Below are positions 647 to 64,000 of a stretch of DNA of 64,000 nucleotides, one piece after another. The stretch comes from a phage. The position numbers were made by a program, and so were the translations under genes. Position 1 is the stretch's first letter. Every line of letters starts with the position of its first letter. The DNA lies in the sequence record PZ445430.1; one strand, written 5' to 3'. Below the pieces are notes generated by a model, which was not told the origin of the DNA, made no database searches, and worked only from the letters and a program-made list of their open reading frames with translations.

Positions 647-809
647 ATTCTCCCTCCTTAATAAGGAACTCTTTCCATTCTGCTGTATCCTCATAGATAA
701 CGCAGAAATCATCACTCTTCCATGAGAAGTCATCAGTAGCAAATTCGAAACGGTAGCACCAACTACCATCTGGCCATACTAAAAGATCACACATGCTTTT
801 CTGGGACAT
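627..809 (-). CDS. hypothetical protein
   Basis: Start overlaps upstream stop (coupled); internal Met of track ORF 627..950. Confidence 0.4.
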   Translation of the reverse strand: MSQKSMCDLLVWPDGSWCYRFEFATDDFSWKSDDFCVIYEDTAEWKEFLIKEGEYGEEDF

Positions 810-1638
810 AAATATTTCCCTCCATAAAAGCTTCAACTTGATCAATAAAGTGTTTATTACCAAAAACTTCGGCAGCTCCAGCACGCCATACAGTAACACC
901 ACGTTTCTCATACTCAAGCTGTTCGTCATAACGAACTTGTGGGTTAACAACCATCATCTTAGTTCCACGACATACAGCAGGAAATAATTCCCAGTTGAAG
1001 TTGATAACTTGGTTACTACAACCCACCACAATAACCATGTCATTGCTAGTAAGAGTATCAAACAGGTTGATTTGACCCATGTACCACGGAGCTGTCTCAC
1101 CAAAGAACACCACGTTTGGTTTTACCCATTCGTAATCTTCAGGGGCAATCGCAGTATACCCAACATCTTCGATGATTTGATTGCGACCCTGATGATAGAT
1201 CACCTCTTTCAAGTACCCGTGAGCGTGAATGATTTCATCACGAGGGATACCAGCACGTTCCAGAAGGTCATCAACGTTAGTAGTGAAGTTCTTCACGCTA
1301 CCCGCATCATAACGCTGGAACCATTCTGCAATTCGCAGATGGGCAATGTTAGGCTCAACAGTCTGTAGTTCCTGACGACGCATGTTGTAGAACTCATGAG
1401 TCTTGAGATACAGATCGTTACCATCTTCATCAATGCCAGGGAAACGAGCGCTGAAGTAGTTAGGATCATCTTCACCACAGAAGCGACGGAAGCCAGCTTC
1501 AAAGTTAGGCAAGCTACATACTTCCTCTAGATCGTACTCATCCCACAAAGATTTTCCACTAGCAGTATCAGTACGGAAAGCACGAACACCACTATCTACA
1601 CTCAAACCTGCACCACTAACAACAATTAGTCTACGCAT
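787..1638 (-). CDS. Sir2-family NAD-dependent deacylase-like protein
   Basis: Sirtuin motifs in translation: GAGLSVDSGVRAFR, TTNVDDLLERAG, HAHG. Confidence 0.6.
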   Translation of the reverse strand: MRRLIVVSGAGLSVDSGVRAFRTDTASGKSLWDEYDLEEVCSLPNFEAGFRRFCGEDDPNYFSARFPGIDEDGNDLYLKTHEFYNMRRQELQTVEPNIAHLRIAEWFQRYDAGSVKNFTTNVDDLLERAGIPRDEIIHAHGYLKEVIYHQGRNQIIEDVGYTAIAPEDYEWVKPNVVFFGETAPWYMGQINLFDTLTSNDMVIVVGCSNQVINFNWELFPAVCRGTKMMVVNPQVRYDEQLEYEKRGVTVWRAGAAEVFGNKHFIDQVEAFMEGNIYVPEKHV

Positions 1639-2013: not shown

Positions 2014-2295
2014 TTAGTTCTGTACTGTAAATTCATTCTTATCACAGTGAGCATAATAATACCCATACATACGATAAATTTTCACAGCCTTAGTAGACCC
2101 CTTCGATTCTTCATAATCAATCCAGAGCCACTTGTCTTTACCTACATAATGTACCCGAAACTTCTTAACTTTCTTATCATTCCATGTTGCAACAACACGA
2201 CGATAATCAAATCCACCCAACCAATCTAGAGCCTTACGTTCTTCACTAGGCTCTCCAAGATAGGAAACATCTACTTTCGGAAGCAATTCGCTCAT
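2014..2295 (-). CDS. hypothetical protein
   Basis: ORF with GAGGAG RBS. Confidence 0.5.
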   Translation of the reverse strand: MSELLPKVDVSYLGEPSEERKALDWLGGFDYRRVVATWNDKKVKKFRVHYVGKDKWLWIDYEESKGSTKAVKIYRMYGYYYAHCDKNEFTVQN

Positions 2296-2393: not shown

Positions 2394-4268
2394 TTATTTA
2401 GCGCGAATGTCCTGATGTTTCACTCGACCCATAACCTCATGTTGTTTACCTGGGTTAAATGGACGAGCACCTGGATTTCCGAGATATCCACAAACTCGAC
2501 GAGTTACCTCAAGAGTCTCAGGATCATGGTTGCCACAAATTGGGCATTTGAAACCATCCTCAGAAGCTATAGTTTCACCCAAGAACCCACATTCCCCACA
2601 AGAGTCTACTGGAGTATTAATACCAAAGTAATGAACTTTACTTGCGGCATAGTTAATAACCCATTCCAGTGCATCTGGGAATCGTTTCATATCCGGCAAT
2701 TCCACATAGGAAATGCATCCACCAGAAGCAATTGGAGTAAAGTTAGACTCATAATCGAACTTCACGTTTGGAGCAACCTTACGTTCTACATCAAGGTGAT
2801 GGGAATTAGTGTAATATCCTTTAGCCAGAATATCTTCATGCTCTGGAAAATACTCACGGTCTAGGCGACAGAAGCGATCACATAGAGATTCAGATGGTGT
2901 AGCATATAGACTATACCCTAATTGAGTCTCTTCCTTCTTCTGATCAGCACGATCACGCATGTATTGTAGCACACGTTGAACGAACTTGACACAAGACTCA
3001 GACATTGTATCTACATCTTTACCAAACATGAACTGCAACATTTCGTGGCAGCCTATATATCCTAGAGATACAGAAGCACGCTTGTAGAAATGATCAAACA
3101 CATACTCATCTGGCCCCAGACGTAATCCAAAGGCTCCTGACATATAGAGGATGGGCGCAGCTTTAGCTTGGATGTATTTTAAGCGATCAACCCTCCACTC
3201 CAATGCTTTTAACGCGGTATCCACACGCAGCTCAAGTAGATCGAAGAATAGATCAATATTTCCTTCCGCTTCGATAGCGATTCGAGGAAGGTTTACGGAA
3301 ACAACGCCTAAGTTGTTACGACCAGAAGTTTCACCATCTTCCGCAGCAGCCAGGAATGAACGACAGCCCATAGAGACTTTGTAGTCTCCCGTAACTTCTA
3401 CAACCTTATCATAACTGATGTAGTCAGGATACATACGTTCAGCAGTACATTTCATAGCTAACTTCTTGATATCATAGTTAACATCACCAGGTTTCATGTT
3501 TACGCCATCACGCAAAACAAATACCAGTTTAGGGAAGATAGCTGTACGTTTATTGATACCCAAACCATCCATACGCACTTCTAGGATTGCTTTCTGTACA
3601 AGACGTGCTTCCCAAGAAGTTCCTAGACCAAACCCAAAGGTAATAAACGGACTTTGACCATTAGAGTTGAACATCGTATTGATTTCATACTCCAGGCCCT
3701 GACAGGCATCGTAAACTTCTTTCTCAGTCATTTCCGTAGCCATTACAGATGCTTTAGCTTCATCCTTAGTCCAACGCTTTGCAAACGCATGATTCTTATC
3801 ATAAGACTTACGAACATAAGGAGCCAATACTTCATCTAATCGGTCTACAGAAGTACCCCCATATTGATGTGAACTAACCTGAGTGATAATCTGAGCTGTG
3901 ATAGCAGCCGCAGTAGTAATAGAGTTTGGTGTACTGATTTCAGCATTACCAACCTTCATACCATTCTTCAACATATCTTCCAAAGCAACCAGGCAACAGT
4001 TAGTCATACCTAACGCAGCGTAATCAGCATCATGGAAGTGAATATCACCAATCATGTGAGCATTTCGAATCTGGATTGGCATTTCTTCCAGAATCAGATA
4101 TTTACTCAATTCCCCTGCAAGCATATCCCTTTGTGTAGGGAAACGTTCTGAGGGCTTATTGGCATTATTAAACAGCAGCTCTTCATCTGCTGAACCTTCG
4201 ATAATTTCTTTGCAGTTTCGAATCAAGGACTGCATTCCTTTATACTTTAGTTCTTCATTGTGATTCAT
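2394..4268 (-). CDS. nrdD: anaerobic ribonucleoside-triphosphate reductase (class III)
   Basis: 624 aa; C-terminal glycyl-radical motif RVCGYLG and Cys-rich zinc site. Confidence 0.9.
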   Translation of the reverse strand: MNHNEELKYKGMQSLIRNCKEIIEGSADEELLFNNANKPSERFPTQRDMLAGELSKYLILEEMPIQIRNAHMIGDIHFHDADYAALGMTNCCLVALEDMLKNGMKVGNAEISTPNSITTAAAITAQIITQVSSHQYGGTSVDRLDEVLAPYVRKSYDKNHAFAKRWTKDEAKASVMATEMTEKEVYDACQGLEYEINTMFNSNGQSPFITFGFGLGTSWEARLVQKAILEVRMDGLGINKRTAIFPKLVFVLRDGVNMKPGDVNYDIKKLAMKCTAERMYPDYISYDKVVEVTGDYKVSMGCRSFLAAAEDGETSGRNNLGVVSVNLPRIAIEAEGNIDLFFDLLELRVDTALKALEWRVDRLKYIQAKAAPILYMSGAFGLRLGPDEYVFDHFYKRASVSLGYIGCHEMLQFMFGKDVDTMSESCVKFVQRVLQYMRDRADQKKEETQLGYSLYATPSESLCDRFCRLDREYFPEHEDILAKGYYTNSHHLDVERKVAPNVKFDYESNFTPIASGGCISYVELPDMKRFPDALEWVINYAASKVHYFGINTPVDSCGECGFLGETIASEDGFKCPICGNHDPETLEVTRRVCGYLGNPGARPFNPGKQHEVMGRVKHQDIRAK

Positions 4269-19978: not shown

Positions 19979-21034
19979 ATGATTAAGACTGGTCTAGTAA
20001 TTGGTAAGTTCGCGCCATTAACGCGTGGTCATATTAACCTAATAAACACAGCAGCAACTATGTGTGAACGAGTTATTGTTGTAGTTAGTCATGATAATCG
20101 TTGGCTGGATAAGCAGAACACACGTGATCAGGAAGTATTACAGTTAAAGAATCGACTTCGTTGGTTAGAACAAACTTACGCGGATATTGAGCACATTTCG
20201 GTAGAGTACATTATTGAAGATGATATTCCTGAATATCCGAATGGTTGGCCGGAATATGCTAGAATCCTTAATGAAAATTACGGACATTTGCCTGAGATCA
20301 CCGTTTTCTCTAGCGAACTAGACTATGATGCAGAATATAAGAAATATCTGCCGAAGTTTGGTCATTATATTGTAGATTCTGATCGGACTCGTGTTCCAAT
20401 CTCAGCTACAATGATTCGTAATGATCTTATGAAGTATTGGGAGTTTCTTCCTAGCGTAGTTCGTAAAGATTACGTGCGTAAGGTTGTAATCATTGGGACT
20501 GAAAGCTCGGGAAAGACTACTTTAACAAAATACCTTGCGAAGCTATACAACACTTCGTGGGTAGAAGAATATGGCCGAACGTATTGTGAAGTTGATCTAG
20601 TTGGTAACGAAAATCTACTTACCAGTGAAGATTACAGTAAAATTGCGTTCAGACACAAAGAGCTAGAGTTTGAGGCAGAACGTACTGCAAATAAGATCAT
20701 GTTTGTAGACACAAATGCTTTTATTACTGAGTTCTACCACAGACTTTATGAACATCGTAAGAATCCTGTGGTTACAGCAATTGCAAAAGAAGAACATTAC
20801 GATTTAGTAATTGTTCTAGCGCCTACTGTTAAGTGGGTAGATGATGGTTTACGTATTAACTCCGATCGTTCAATTACTTCTGAACTGTTCGAGCAGATGA
20901 AGAAAGAATTTCCAAATCAGTTCCCTGAAGGGCGTACTGTTTACATCGACTCCCCGGACTACAAAGTTCGTATGGACGAAGCAGTAAACGCAGTAGACTG
21001 GCTGATTCATCACTTTAACGTTGGAGAGTTTTAA
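19979..21034 (+). CDS. nadR: NadR-like bifunctional NMN adenylyltransferase / ribosylnicotinamide kinase
   Basis: Nucleotidyltransferase motif GKFAPLTRGH at N-terminus; P-loop GTESSGKTT in C-terminal half. Confidence 0.7.
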   Translation: MIKTGLVIGKFAPLTRGHINLINTAATMCERVIVVVSHDNRWLDKQNTRDQEVLQLKNRLRWLEQTYADIEHISVEYIIEDDIPEYPNGWPEYARILNENYGHLPEITVFSSELDYDAEYKKYLPKFGHYIVDSDRTRVPISATMIRNDLMKYWEFLPSVVRKDYVRKVVIIGTESSGKTTLTKYLAKLYNTSWVEEYGRTYCEVDLVGNENLLTSEDYSKIAFRHKELEFEAERTANKIMFVDTNAFITEFYHRLYEHRKNPVVTAIAKEEHYDLVIVLAPTVKWVDDGLRINSDRSITSELFEQMKKEFPNQFPEGRTVYIDSPDYKVRMDEAVNAVDWLIHHFNVGEF

Positions 21035-21035
21035 T

Positions 21036-21713
21036 ATGACTAACTATCTTGTAAATGACTTTAAAAACTGGAAACCTTTGGAATATCTGTGGCTGTTTAT
21101 AGCAGTCGCCTTTATTAGTTTAGCAAACTATAATGGTACAGCTCTAGATTGGGCTACTGCAATAACCAATGTGGTTTGTGTTATTCTGGTTGCAAAAGGA
21201 CGTGTTTCCAACTATATTTGGGGCTTAGTGGGTGTTCTTACATATGGTATTACAGCTTTAAACGCAGATCTTTATGGTAACGCTGCACTAAACCTGCTAT
21301 ACTACGTTCCTATGCAGTTTTATGGAATGTACTTATGGCATAAAAATAAGCCAAGTAATCTGCCAGATGTTCCAACTAAGTTTCTGACTAAAGCCCAAGC
21401 TCTGCTGACTCTAGGGATTCTAGCAGTAGCCACGTTAGGGTATGGTAGTTTCTTAGCTACTACAGCTGATCCATTCCCAATGCTCGATGCATTTACTGCG
21501 GTTGGTAGTGTGATCGCTATGTGGCTTATGGTTAAGCAGTATGCCGAGCAGTGGCTGATCTGGATTGCTATTAACATTGGTACTGTGTACATTTGGCTTG
21601 TAACTGCTCAATCTACAGGTGCATCTTATGCAATCCTAGCAATGTGGCTAGTATTCTTAGGTAACTCTATTATGGGAGCCTATAAAGGATACTTTGTACG
21701 CGTTAACAAATAA
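21036..21713 (+). CDS. pnuC: PnuC-like nicotinamide riboside transporter
   Basis: About 226 aa polytopic membrane protein coupled to nadR-like gene. Confidence 0.65.
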   Translation: MTNYLVNDFKNWKPLEYLWLFIAVAFISLANYNGTALDWATAITNVVCVILVAKGRVSNYIWGLVGVLTYGITALNADLYGNAALNLLYYVPMQFYGMYLWHKNKPSNLPDVPTKFLTKAQALLTLGILAVATLGYGSFLATTADPFPMLDAFTAVGSVIAMWLMVKQYAEQWLIWIAINIGTVYIWLVTAQSTGASYAILAMWLVFLGNSIMGAYKGYFVRVNK

Positions 21714-28389: not shown

Positions 28390-28482
28390 GGAAGAGCAAA
28401 TCGACTTGGTGACGAAAACCACTTGGAAAGTGGCTGACTTGTGAAAGCAGGCTTGAGAGTTCGAATCTCTCTTCTTCCGCCA
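28390..28482 (+). tRNA. tRNA-Ser(GGA)
   Basis: Acceptor ggaagag/ttcttcc; anticodon loop TTGGAAA; long variable arm; T-loop TTCGAAT; CCA encoded. Confidence 0.55.
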
Positions 28483-28496
28483 AACAAAATTTATAG

Positions 28497-28591
28497 GGTA
28501 GGTCAATCCAACGGCTGGCGCTGGACTCCGACTTGAAATCGGTTGATCGTAGTGATACGGTGTAAGGGTTCGATCCCCTTACCTACCCCCA
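28497..28591 (+). tRNA. tRNA-Ser(TGA)
   Basis: Acceptor ggtaggt/acctacc; anticodon loop CTTGAAA; long variable arm; CCA encoded. Confidence 0.6.
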
Positions 28592-30756: not shown

Positions 30757-30832
30757 AGTTAGTTGGCAGAGAGGTTATGCACCTCCTTCATACGGAGCGA
30801 CTACAGTGGTTCAAATCCACTACTAACTACCA
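30757..30832 (+). tRNA. tRNA(CAT), third copy
   Basis: Acceptor agttagt/actaact; anticodon loop TTCATAC; T-arm agtgg-TTCAAAT-ccact; CCA encoded. Confidence 0.65.
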
Positions 30833-31015
30833 AAGATAAGATCAGGCCTTTGTGCCAGATCTCTGTGTTTATTAAACTGAATGGGACTATCAATCCACAA
30901 GCCGGACTACGAGCGATTATCGGGTATTCACTTAATAAACAGCCTGCCTCCCAGTTTTTATCTTGCTTCTGGGTTAACAAAAAGCTGAGCCAAATTCTAA
31001 CATCATGGAGATCTA

Positions 31016-31384
31016 ATGAAAGCGTACCAAAACCTTAAATCCGGCGTAATTAACCTTGTTCATGACAATCAGATCATTCAATTATACTCTAAAGATGGTG
31101 AACTTAAACAAAAAGTTCTAGTTGAAGATCTAGAAGGTATCACACCTCACTTTGATACTGAAGCCTTTCGCATCGTAGATGTTGAAGTAGTTCCTCAGGT
31201 CGAGGGCGGTCAGCACCTAAATGTCAATGTGTTAAGTCGTGATCAGCTTTTGGATGCACAGAAACATCCTGAAAAATACCCTCAGTTGACCATTCGTGTC
31301 TCTGGCTATGCTGTTCGATTTAATGCACTGACGCGTGAACAACAGAACGACGTTATTAGTCGTACATTTACTCAGGCGATATAA
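31016..31384 (+). CDS. grcA: GrcA-like autonomous glycyl-radical cofactor
   Basis: Translation matches GrcA/PFL C-terminus: [43 protein letters not shown]. Confidence 0.8.
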
Positions 31385-31465
31385 TGGGGTTTGGATACGA
31401 TTTCTCCCAGCTACGCAAGGTAGTCGAGCAAACTCCATTTATCTCCCAAGTTTTAGGAGAAATGT

Positions 31466-31759
31466 GTGGATCGAGCATTAAGACGCCATCACCGGCAACG
31501 TGTGAAAAACAATCGCAAAAAGTATTGGACAGTCTTCCCACATGAAGAAAGTCCTAAGCGGTTAGGCATTATCACTACCACTCCTTGCATCTGTTCTTGT
31601 TGGATGTGTGGGAATCCTCGCAAATACTATAAGAATAGTAAAGCAGGTATGAAAATCTCGGAGATTAAAAAGATGGAATCGACTGAACTGATTATCGGAT
31701 ATGGCGAAGGTATTTCAAATGATGAATTTGATGGCTTCGTAGGTTTCGGTGAAGGTTAA
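31466..31759 (+). CDS. Cys-rich hypothetical protein
   Basis: GTG start 6 nt after AGGAG; CICSCWMC motif. Confidence 0.45.
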   Translation: MDRALRRHHRQRVKNNRKKYWTVFPHEESPKRLGIITTTPCICSCWMCGNPRKYYKNSKAGMKISEIKKMESTELIIGYGEGISNDEFDGFVGFGEG

Positions 31760-63518: not shown

Positions 63519-64000
63519 ATGGCAAATGATGTATTAGTTCCTGATCTCATGTCTCCCGAAGGCATGGATGTTATTGAAGCCTATTTACAGTGTGGTAGTG
63601 ATGTTCCTGCCGCTGCTCGTAGTCTTGGGATGTCCGAGATTGCATTCCGTGATATAATGAATCGTGGGGAAGTTAAAAACTATCTTAACGATATCTTTAT
63701 GGAAAGCGGCTTCCGTAATCGCGACCGTTTGTTTGGGGTTCTTGATGAAGTTATCAAGCGCAAGTTGGAAGAACTCGAAGAAACTGGCATGGGTTCTGAC
63801 CAGGATATCATGGATATTCTCTGGAAGGCGCACAAGATGAAGATGGAAGAAATGAAAATGATGGTAGAACTGGAGAAAGTGAAGGCAGCAGCCCGTACTC
63901 CAGCTAATCAGACTAACATTCAGAATAATATTATTGCTGGAAGTGGTGACGAAAACTATATGAATCTTATTACCGCTCTAGCAGGAGGAGGTAAGAGATA
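63519..64000 (+). CDS. partial CDS, terminase small subunit-like (HTH plus coiled coil)
   Basis: AAGGAGG RBS; ORF open to window end; HTH-like [16 protein letters not shown]; assignment tentative. Confidence 0.35.

What the first reader, a model, noticed from the sequence alone, without database searches (positions are those of the whole stretch)
31016..31384. Stand-alone GrcA-like glycyl-radical protein beside a class III reductase lacking a visible activase
The 122-aa product matches the GrcA/pyruvate-formate-lyase C-terminal glycyl-radical domain almost motif for motif. The window also encodes nrdD (2394-4268) with its own glycyl-radical motif, but I found no radical-SAM activase (CxxxCxxC) gene. 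The phage may use host activases and supply a spare radical domain to repair host PFL or its own NrdD.
Basis: partly seen in the sequence, partly recalled or inferred. Interest (0 to 1): 0.6.

Follow-up and report, generated by a model that had tools for sequence, protein, structure and literature searches.

The report
Phage copy of GrcA spare-part protein
This T5-like coliphage carries a small, well-conserved copy of the bacterial "spare part" protein GrcA/YfiD that can replace the oxygen-broken end of the host's pyruvate formate-lyase; the same gene is already annotated in T5 and was shown to work biochemically for phage T4, so the finding is real but ordinary.

Summary
Window 31016-31384 (+) encodes a 122-aa protein whose last 61 residues are 77-80% identical to the C-terminus of E. 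coli PflB and to GrcA/YfiD, including the RVSGYAV glycyl-radical loop (Gly97). The window is Escherichia phage SuperGirl (Bas29, a T5-like Epseptimavirus). nrdD is present at 2394-4268 (-), and no radical-SAM activase is detectable in the window or in the complete 110.8-kb genome.

None of this is new. The gene is T5.056 in phage T5. It occurs in about 440 T5-like records and, more distantly, in over 1,100 other phage records, many already labelled "autonomous glycyl radical cofactor". Its T4 homologue Y06I (vs.6) was shown in 2001 to be activated by host PFL-activase and to restore O2-cleaved PFL. That many phages carry nrdD with nrdAB but no nrdG was reported in 2013, in a survey that covered T5, EPS7 and SPC35.

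The gene is functional: 31 of 31 copies are intact and dN/dS is 0.07. It is also an old resident of the phage. Repair of the phage's own NrdD is not supported. Two local candidates for a hidden activase were tested and rejected. Best reading: a host-PflA-dependent spare part for host PflB. Interest is low.

The parts
31016..31384 (+). grcA-like CDS (122 aa plus stop). It is bas29_0135 of phage SuperGirl and the orthologue of T5.056.
   Evidence: ORF list and sequence. Pfam, NCBIfam and PDB matches. 100% identical to MZ501105.1 78319-78687. T5 orthologue.
31007..31010 (+). Shine-Dalgarno GGAG, 5 nt upstream of the ATG.
   Evidence: Read from the sequence. The GGAGATCTAATG context is conserved in T5 and the other T5-like loci examined, although the upstream spacer varies from 13 to 403 nt.
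31016..31195 (+). N-terminal half (residues 1-60). The sequence has diverged from YfiD and Y06I but is under purifying selection. It is predicted as a five-strand beta sheet.
   Evidence: dN/dS 0.109. No stand-alone BLASTP similarity to the T4 or E. coli N-terminal halves. phrog_1209 matches the full length 1-122. AlphaFold2 pLDDT is 80-90 with strands E2-6, 12-16, 19-26, 29-36 and 51-54. A bacterial GrcA control gives the same picture.
31196..31381 (+). Glycyl-radical domain (residues 61-122), equivalent to PflB 698-759 and YfiD 61-127.
   Evidence: 77% identical to PflB, 80% to E. coli GrcA and 79% to T4 Y06I over 61 residues. 35 invariant columns across 37 diverse family members. Foldseek match to 6owr, E 3.3e-5, TM 0.76 on the target. 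dN/dS 0.019.
31304..31306 (+). Codon GGC for Gly97, the predicted radical-bearing glycine in RVSGYAV (equivalent to PflB Gly734).
   Evidence: Position computed. The column is invariant in alignments A3 and A4.
2394..4268 (-). nrdD, the class III ribonucleotide reductase catalytic subunit (624 aa). It lacks the ATP-cone and has its own RRVCGYLG glycyl-radical motif and C-terminal Cys4 zinc-ribbon motif. No cognate nrdG is present.
   Evidence: Pfam NRDD E 1.9e-172 and Gly_radical E 8.3e-23. 52% identical to E. coli NrdD residues 86-705, with a near-identical Gly loop. No NrdG homologue in the genome.
30757..30832 (+). tRNA-Met(CAT), the last gene of the tRNA cluster, immediately upstream. In T5 the grcA orthologue starts 13 nt after this tRNA, in the same annotated transcription unit.
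   Evidence: ARAGORN. Rfam tRNA 49.6 bits. T5 annotation with promoter P11 and a terminator after T5.055. Alignment A5.
31384..31545 (+). 53-aa ORF (bas29_0136) whose ATG overlaps the grcA stop codon (TAATG). Function unknown. Context only.
   Evidence: phrog_31464 E 1.2e-32. The ORF is present at 53-57 aa in 28 of 28 T5-like loci.
31466..31759 (+). 97-aa Cys-rich ORF (CICSCWMCGNPRK). It holds the only CxxxCxxC motif in a plausible coding ORF of this genome. It is not a radical-SAM enzyme. Context only.
   Evidence: No Pfam hit at E<=1. phrog_4499 E 3.1e-37, unknown function. Conserved in 25 of 28 loci. The position corresponds to the 103-aa T5.055.

Best explanation
[quoted passage not shown] Shown here: it is an intact, strongly conserved 122-aa protein. 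Its C-terminal 61 residues are a near copy of the PflB C-terminus, which carries the Gly734 radical loop. The phage has no activase of its own. Inferred from the characterised homologues: when host pyruvate formate-lyase (PflB) is hit by oxygen, its backbone is cut at the radical glycine. The phage protein docks onto the truncated enzyme in place of the lost C-terminal piece. Gly97 is then converted to a radical by the host's radical-SAM activase PflA, and PFL activity (pyruvate + CoA -> acetyl-CoA + formate) returns. Further inference from general knowledge of T5 biology: T5-type phages destroy host DNA early, through the A1-dependent pre-early functions encoded in this same window. The infected cell therefore cannot re-synthesise PflB or its own GrcA. 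A phage-encoded spare part keeps fermentative acetyl-CoA and ATP supply running during infection at low or fluctuating oxygen. The unrelated nrdD gene serves anaerobic dNTP synthesis and must be activated by pre-existing host NrdG. The two genes share a dependence on host activases and an anaerobic or microaerobic lifestyle, not a mechanism.
For: Identity: Pfam Gly_radical E 4.3e-18; NCBIfam GrcA E 2e-34; PDB YfiD E 1.9e-29 and PflB E 1.4e-26. The last 61 residues are 80%, 79% and 77% identical to E. coli GrcA, T4 Y06I and PflB. [13 protein letters not shown] and most of the helix are invariant in 37 diverse family members. The predicted C-terminal fold matches the YfiD NMR structure. Function retained: 31 of 31 T5-like copies are intact, with dN/dS 0.069 overall, 0.019 in the C-terminal half and 0.109 in the N-terminal half. 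The Shine-Dalgarno sequence is conserved. Precedent: Y06I of T4 and YfiD are activated by PFL-AE and restore O2-cleaved PFL (Wagner 2001, as cited in PMC8683613; PMC13450708). Full-length relatedness to the T4 protein: 51% identity over 1-122, and phrog_1209 covers residues 1-122. Host dependence: no NrdG or PflA homologue in the whole genome, while the host K-12 has pflA, pflB, grcA, nrdG and nrdD. Specificity for PFL rather than NrdD: no similarity to the phage NrdD. Ecology: the phage carries both aerobic (nrdAB) and anaerobic (nrdD) reductases. The A1 and A2 genes are annotated in the record.
Against: No experiment exists for any T5-like copy. The literature found says only YfiD and Y06I have been validated. 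The protein scores below NCBIfam's GrcA equivalog cut-off (118.6 against 170 bits), although validated Y06I also fails it (153.3). The N-terminal 50-60 residues, which in YfiD help bind cleaved PFL and aid radical installation (PMC8683613), show no stand-alone sequence similarity to YfiD or Y06I. Docking could therefore differ. Activation of the phage NrdD by host NrdG is pure inference; I found no literature on cross-activation.
Confidence: 0.8

Rival explanations
1. Same protein family, but a broader or different client. The phage protein donates its radical domain to intact but unactivated PflB, or to the paralogous 2-ketobutyrate formate-lyase TdcE. It would then boost formate-lyase flux rather than specifically repair oxygen-cleaved PflB.
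For: [quoted passage not shown] Several phage records label the gene '2-ketobutyrate formate-lyase'. The Gly-radical half is about equally distant from PflB (77%) and GrcA (80%).
Against: TdcE was not compared here. The database labels are automatic name transfers, not evidence. The only biochemistry on a phage homologue (Y06I) used oxygen-fragmented PFL.
Confidence: 0.1
2. A decoy or regulator. The phage protein competes for host PflA or for the PflB docking site in order to modulate or shut down host fermentative metabolism, or to soak up radical-generating capacity, rather than to restore it.
For: The N-terminal half has diverged from YfiD and Y06I yet is under selection, which leaves room for a changed interaction. 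The phage relies wholly on host activases.
Against: The radical glycine and the entire surrounding loop and helix are invariant, with the strongest constraint of the whole protein (dN/dS 0.019). That is the pattern expected for a catalytically used radical domain, not a decoy. The homologue Y06I restores activity.
Confidence: 0.05
3. A spare part for the phage's own class III reductase NrdD after oxygen cleavage.
For: Both proteins are glycyl-radical proteins encoded by the same phage. The JBC 2021 authors speculate that spare parts might exist for other glycyl-radical enzymes.
Against: There is no detectable similarity between the protein and the phage NrdD (BLASTP, no hit at E<=10). The NrdD radical loop is RRVCGYLG, preceded by a Cys4 zinc-ribbon motif, unlike [14 protein letters not shown]. 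The protein is 77% identical to PflB over the exchanged segment. It would also have to be activated by NrdG, whose substrate loop differs. The genes are 27 kb apart on opposite strands.
Confidence: 0.03
4. A non-functional fragment of host pflB or grcA, picked up by chance and decaying.
For: It is a partial copy of a large host enzyme, and T4's copy shows signs of very recent exchange with host grcA.
Against: 31 of 31 copies are intact at exactly 122 aa, with dN/dS 0.069 at dS 0.39. GC content is 0.404 against 0.399 for the phage, and third codon positions are only about 42% identical to host genes. The ribosome-binding site is conserved. The gene is present across T5-like, T4-like and jumbo phages.
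Confidence: 0.01

Closest known systems
Y06I (gene vs.6) of bacteriophage T4, an autonomous glycyl-radical cofactor
   Same: A stand-alone phage protein of about 120 aa, 51% identical over the full length. Both begin MKAYQ, share an identical radical loop, fall in the same PHROG (phrog_1209 covers the full length), and have their stop codon overlapping the start of a small downstream ORF. Y06I was shown to be activated by E. coli PFL-activase and to reconstitute O2-fragmented PFL (Wagner 2001).
   Different: The 3' 183 nt of T4's gene are 98% identical to E. coli grcA in DNA, a recent exchange. The SuperGirl/T5 gene is long diverged (70% DNA identity, third positions about 42%). The N-terminal halves share no stand-alone similarity. 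T4 also encodes its own nrdG, whereas the T5-like phage does not. The downstream small ORFs are unrelated.
GrcA/YfiD of Escherichia coli (TIGR04365, IPR011140; PDB 6owr)
   Same: Same size class and the same two-part layout. The C-terminal 61 residues are 80% identical. The fold matches. The predicted N-terminal beta-sheet architecture is the same as in a near-identical bacterial GrcA control.
   Different: The profile matches only residues 54-121, and the score (118.6 bits) is below the equivalog cut-off of 170. N-terminal similarity is limited to a 10-residue stretch. The gene is phage-encoded and sits after a tRNA cluster, not under host stress regulation.
C-terminal glycyl-radical domain of pyruvate formate-lyase PflB (residues 698-759; PDB 1h16)
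   Same: 77% identical over 61 residues, including the Gly734 loop RVSGYAV.
   Different: It lacks the 10-stranded barrel and the catalytic Cys418/Cys419. It cannot be a formate acetyltransferase by itself, so labels such as 'pyruvate formate-lyase' or 'putative formate acetyltransferase' in phage records are misnomers.
nrdD-only phages reported by Dwivedi et al. 2013 (PMC3653736), including the T5/EPS7/SPC35 nrdD cluster
   Same: The layout is the same: nrdD, then phoH, then nrdA and nrdB. nrdG is absent from SuperGirl.
   Different: None found. This window is a further example of the same arrangement.

Membership tests
[quoted passage not shown] | A small stand-alone protein (about 120-130 aa) that contains only the C-terminal glycyl-radical domain of a PFL-type enzyme. 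| tested here: met
   122 aa. Pfam PF01228 covers residues 62-103 and matches only the last part of the model (positions 65-106). No other domain was found.
[quoted passage not shown] | A radical glycine in the PFL-type loop RVSGYAV, with flanking residues conserved. | tested here: met
   Gly97 in [14 protein letters not shown]. These columns are invariant or nearly so in alignments A3 and A4.
[quoted passage not shown] | The C-terminal ~60 residues closely match the PflB segment lost or replaced after O2 cleavage (PflB 693-759) and adopt its fold. | tested here: met
   77% identity to PflB over 61 residues. phmmer aligns residues 61-121 to PflB 698-758. Foldseek match to YfiD 6owr, E 3.3e-5, TM 0.76 on the target.
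[quoted passage not shown] | A score above the curated NCBIfam equivalog cut-off (TIGR04365, 170 bits). | tested here: not met
   118.6 bits. Calibration: biochemically validated T4 Y06I also fails at 153.3 bits, while E. coli GrcA scores 234. The cut-off therefore excludes phage N-termini rather than a different function.
[quoted passage not shown] | An N-terminal ~60-residue region related to that of YfiD, which is implicated in binding cleaved PFL. | tested here: inconclusive
   No stand-alone BLASTP similarity to the T4 or E. coli N-terminal halves. Against that, the multiple alignment shows a shared layout, phrog_1209 covers the full length, and AlphaFold2 predicts the same five-strand beta sheet for the phage protein and for a bacterial GrcA.
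[quoted passage not shown] | Glycyl-radical installation by PFL-activating enzyme (PflA), and restoration of activity to O2-cleaved PFL. | not testable with these tools
   This needs anaerobic biochemistry and EPR. It has been shown only for YfiD and T4 Y06I.
Complete class III ribonucleotide reductase system (NrdD + NrdG) | A catalytic subunit NrdD with a glycyl-radical motif and a C-terminal Cys4 zinc-ribbon motif. | tested here: met
   Pfam NRDD E 1.9e-172. The C-terminus reads ...CGECGF...CPICGNHD...TRRVCGYLG.
Complete class III ribonucleotide reductase system (NrdD + NrdG) | A cognate radical-SAM activase NrdG encoded by the same genome. | tested here: not met
   tblastn with E. coli NrdG against the whole 110,821-bp genome gives a best E of 0.11. 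None is annotated. The ORF downstream of nrdD is not an NrdG remnant (hhalign probability 0.55%).
Radical-SAM glycyl-radical activase (PflA/NrdG type), considered for the 97-aa ORF at 31466-31759 | A CxxxCxxC cluster motif near the N-terminus of a radical-SAM core (NrdG 154 aa, PflA 246 aa) that matches the family profiles. | tested here: not met
   The motif is present (CICSCWMC), but it lies at residue 41 of a 97-aa protein. There is no Pfam hit at E<=1. It belongs to phrog_4499, of unknown function. tblastn with PflA or NrdG gives nothing significant there.

The most novel reading that the evidence does not exclude
The T5-like GrcA may have a changed partner specificity. Its N-terminal half is under purifying selection, yet it is unrecognisable by sequence against the two validated spare parts. 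That half might direct the protein to a different client or state, such as TdcE or intact inactive PflB, or tune its activation by PflA. Separately, the phage carries two glycyl-radical proteins and no activase. Host pflA and nrdG would then be conditional host-dependency factors for T5-like phages under anoxia, which is directly testable with Keio mutants and the BASEL phage Bas29.
Probability: 0.12. Interest if true: 0.35.

Novelty: already known. Interest (0 to 1): 0.12.

Why it matters
It matters modestly. Virulent enterobacterial phages of several lineages (T5-like, T4-like and jumbo phages) keep a spare part for a host fermentative enzyme. That is a clear example of an auxiliary metabolic gene tuned to gut-like oxygen fluctuations. 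The T5-like version has never been tested biochemically. Many public records mislabel it 'pyruvate formate-lyase', 'formate acetyltransferase' or even 'ribonucleotide reductase subunit', so a corrected annotation is the practical outcome. The complete absence of activases makes a simple prediction: anaerobic growth of these phages should depend on host nrdG, and recovery after an oxygen pulse should depend on host pflA. No new kind of system is involved.

Tried and rejected
(1) A decayed nrdG downstream of nrdD. The best, non-significant tblastn hits of E. coli NrdG (E 0.11) and one of PflA fell in the 93-aa ORF at 2014-2295 (-). Pairwise alignments showed a GKDxWxW match to NrdG. However, that motif is not conserved in the ORF's own family. 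All homologues are short, T5-like-only proteins with no Pfam domain. Pfam finds nothing at E<=1, and hhalign against an NrdG alignment gives a probability of 0.55%. Rejected.

(2) The Cys-rich 97-aa ORF right after grcA as a hidden activase. It is too short, has no Pfam match and belongs to a PHROG of unknown function. Rejected.

(3) Conserved synteny between T4 vs.5/vs.7 and the SuperGirl downstream ORFs. No similarity was found.

(4) Vibrio and Aeromonas phages of 115-130 kb that carry nrdG (VnaP, PhAER-4) were examined to learn whether the T5 lineage lost nrdG. Their records carry no taxonomy, so the question stayed open.

(5) A folded, phage-specific N-terminal domain. AlphaFold2 predicts a confident beta sheet, but the bacterial GrcA control gives the same result. 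It is a family-wide prediction, not a novelty. It has no match among solved structures. The afdb50 library was unavailable, and the BFVD search returned only other phage GrcA-like proteins.

(6) The ~170-nt insert between tRNA-Met and grcA matches no Rfam family. Promoter-like hits there are not above chance.

(7) Literature searches for the T5-like protein, or for cross-activation of a phage NrdD by host NrdG, found nothing specific.

Full report
**What is there**

The window is Escherichia phage SuperGirl (Bas29, MZ501105.1; Demerecviridae, Markadamsvirinae, Epseptimavirus). It corresponds to record positions 47304-110821, followed by a wrap to positions 1-482.

The ORF named in the finding exists exactly as stated: 31016-31384 on the + strand, ATG start, 122 aa. 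A GGAG ribosome-binding site lies 5 nt upstream of the ATG. The record calls the gene bas29_0135, 'putative formate acetyltransferase'.

**Identity of the product**

- Pfam places residues 62-103 in the Gly_radical family (E 4.3e-18).
- NCBIfam's best model is the autonomous glycyl-radical cofactor GrcA (TIGR04365, E 2e-34).
- Among solved structures, the best matches are E. coli YfiD/GrcA (6owr, E 1.9e-29) and pyruvate formate-lyase (E 1.4e-26), with residues 61-121 aligning to PflB 698-758.
- Over the last 61 residues the protein is 80% identical to E. coli GrcA, 79% to T4 Y06I and 77% to PflB.
- The radical glycine is Gly97, in [14 protein letters not shown]. This stretch is invariant or nearly so across 37 diverse phage and bacterial family members.
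- An AlphaFold2 model (mean pLDDT 78) reproduces the YfiD C-terminal fold (Foldseek against 6owr: E 3.3e-5, TM 0.76 on the target).

**Is it a working gene?**

Thirty further T5-like loci from IMG/VR, including T5 itself, all carry an intact 122-aa ORF. Across the 29 distinct nucleotide sequences, dS is 0.39 and dN/dS is 0.069. The Gly-radical half has dN/dS 0.019 and the N-terminal half 0.109.

The Shine-Dalgarno context GGAGATCTAATG is conserved, although the spacer to the upstream tRNA-Met varies from 13 to 403 nt.

The gene's GC content (0.404) equals the phage's (0.399). Third codon positions are only about 42% identical to host grcA or pflB. It is therefore an old, maintained phage gene and not a recent scrap of host DNA.

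**The activase question**

nrdD is present at 2394-4268 on the minus strand (Pfam NRDD E 1.9e-172). It is 52% identical to E. coli NrdD residues 86-705, so it lacks the ATP-cone. Its Cys4 zinc-ribbon motif and radical loop are nearly identical to the host's: TRRVCGYLGNPGARPFNPGKQ against TRRVCGYLGSPDARPFNAGKQ.

A six-frame scan found only one CxxxCxxC motif in a plausible coding ORF of at least 60 codons in the whole genome. It lies in a 97-aa ORF at 31466-31759.

tblastn with E. coli NrdG and PflA against the complete 110.8-kb genome gave best E-values of 0.11 and 1.5. No activase is annotated among the record's 209 features.

Two local candidates for a hidden activase were tested and rejected.

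- **The 93-aa ORF just downstream of nrdD.** It drew the best weak NrdG hit. The matching motif is not conserved in its own family, its homologues are all short and confined to T5-like phages, and hhalign against NrdG gives a probability of 0.55%.
- **The Cys-rich 97-aa ORF.** It has no Pfam match at E<=1 and belongs to a PHROG of unknown function.

The K-12 host has pflA, pflB, grcA, nrdG and nrdD.

**How it most likely works**

The characterised relatives set the mechanism. YfiD of E. coli and Y06I of T4 are 'spare part' proteins. After oxygen cleaves PFL at its radical glycine, they bind the truncated enzyme, receive a glycyl radical from the PFL-activating enzyme, and restore activity (Wagner et al. 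2001, as summarised in PMC8683613; PMC13450708).

YfiD residues 61-127 have the fold of PFL 693-759. Residues 1-60 are disordered in solution but help bind cleaved PFL.

The SuperGirl protein keeps the whole exchanged segment under very strong constraint. It is 51% identical to Y06I over its full length and shares Y06I's MKAYQ start. It belongs to one full-length PHROG, phrog_1209. I infer the same mechanism, with host PflA as the activase and host PflB as the client.

A further inference from general T5 biology explains why a virulent phage would carry this gene. T5-type phages destroy host DNA early, using A1-dependent functions that are annotated in this window. The host therefore cannot replace damaged PflB or make its own GrcA. 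The presence of both aerobic nrdAB and anaerobic nrdD fits a life at fluctuating oxygen.

**The NrdD-repair alternative**

This is not supported.

- The protein has no detectable similarity to the phage NrdD.
- The NrdD radical loop and zinc-ribbon motif are of a different type.
- The two genes are 27 kb apart on opposite strands.

What they share is dependence on host radical-SAM activases. Activation of the phage NrdD by host NrdG is plausible given the near-identical loop, but it is untested. I found no literature on it.

**Differences from the validated family members**

The protein scores 118.6 bits against the NCBIfam GrcA equivalog model, below the cut-off of 170. Validated Y06I also fails at 153.3 bits, while E. 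coli GrcA scores 234. The cut-off therefore reflects divergent phage N-termini.

Taken alone, the N-terminal 60 residues have no significant BLASTP similarity to those of Y06I or YfiD.

AlphaFold2 predicts this half as a confident five-strand beta sheet (pLDDT 80-90), with low confidence only for residues 62-72, the strand that inserts into PFL. A control prediction for a bacterial GrcA whose C-terminal 61 residues are identical to YfiD's gave the same picture. This is a family-wide prediction, not a phage novelty. It is at odds with the NMR-observed disorder and may represent a bound state.

**Novelty**

None of substance.

- T5 carries the gene as T5.056, annotated by its InterPro glycyl-radical domain.
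- tblastn finds the protein in 1,584 phage records. About 440 are T5-like at 80% identity or more; the rest are mainly T4-like (gene vs.6) and jumbo phages. Many are already labelled 'autonomous glycyl radical cofactor GrcA'.
- Dwivedi et al. 2013 reported that many phages have nrdD with nrdAB but no nrdG. They describe the nrdD-phoH-nrdAB layout of T5, EPS7 and SPC35.

What remains undone is any experiment on a T5-like copy.

**Verdict**

The finding is already known, and its interest is low.

Noticed in passing
L006:4178-4360 (T4 vs.6, 3' half) compared with L010:1567-1950(-) (E. coli K-12 grcA): The last 183 nt of T4 vs.6 (Y06I) are 98% identical in DNA to E. coli grcA, and 97% identical at third codon positions. 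Its 5' half is phage-like, with an MKAYQ start as in the T5-like gene. This looks like a very recent recombination between phage and host genes. The SuperGirl copy shows no such signal (70% DNA identity, third positions about 42%).
   Followed up: partly
window 31466-31759 (+): This is a GTG-start 97-aa Cys-rich ORF (RRHHRQRVKNNRKKY...CICSCWMCGNPRK). Its protein sequence is conserved in 25 of 28 T5-like loci, well upstream of the Met at 31604 where the SuperGirl record starts bas29_0137. T5 annotates a 103-aa T5.055 at the corresponding position, and phrog_4499 matches residues 1-89. The SuperGirl start is probably annotated too far downstream. The long ORF overlaps the 53-aa ORF at 31384-31545 in another frame.
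   Followed up: partly
window 30833-31015: The spacer between tRNA-Met and the grcA start is 183 nt here, 13 nt in T5, and 13-403 nt among other T5-like loci. It is a hypervariable intergenic spot. The SuperGirl insert matches no Rfam family.
   Followed up: partly
window 2394-4268 (-): The phage NrdD aligns to E. coli NrdD from residue 86 onward, so it lacks the N-terminal ATP-cone. Allosteric dATP/ATP activity control is therefore presumably absent.
   Followed up: no
window 31016-31195 (+) and protein P0111: AlphaFold2 predicts a confident (pLDDT 80-90) five-strand beta sheet for the N-terminal half of both the phage protein and a bacterial GrcA. NMR of E. coli YfiD found residues 1-60 disordered (PMC8683613). 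This may be a conditionally folded, partner-bound state. No solved structure resembles it.
   Followed up: partly
window 28390-28482 and 28497-28591 (+): The public record annotates two tRNA-Ser genes here (record 75693-75785 and 75800-75894) that ARAGORN did not report among its 27 tRNAs for the window.
   Followed up: no
window 787-1638 (-) and 19979-21713 (+): A Sir2-family protein (Pfam SIR2, E 8.4e-22) lies near nrdD. The record also annotates a nicotinamide-nucleotide adenylyltransferase and an NMN transporter. Together they look like an NAD-metabolism gene set in the same early region.
   Followed up: no
window 63519-64000: The last 482 bases of the window are identical to the first 482 bases of the public record (the start of the terminase small subunit gene). 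The window therefore runs across the record's end-to-start junction.
   Followed up: yes
phage records listed: The same 122-aa protein carries inconsistent labels across GenBank phage records: 'pyruvate formate-lyase', '2-ketobutyrate formate-lyase', 'putative formate acetyltransferase', 'putative acetyltransferase-related protein', 'ribonucleotide reductase subunit' and 'hypothetical protein'. PHROGs lists its family (phrog_1209) as unknown function.
   Followed up: yes
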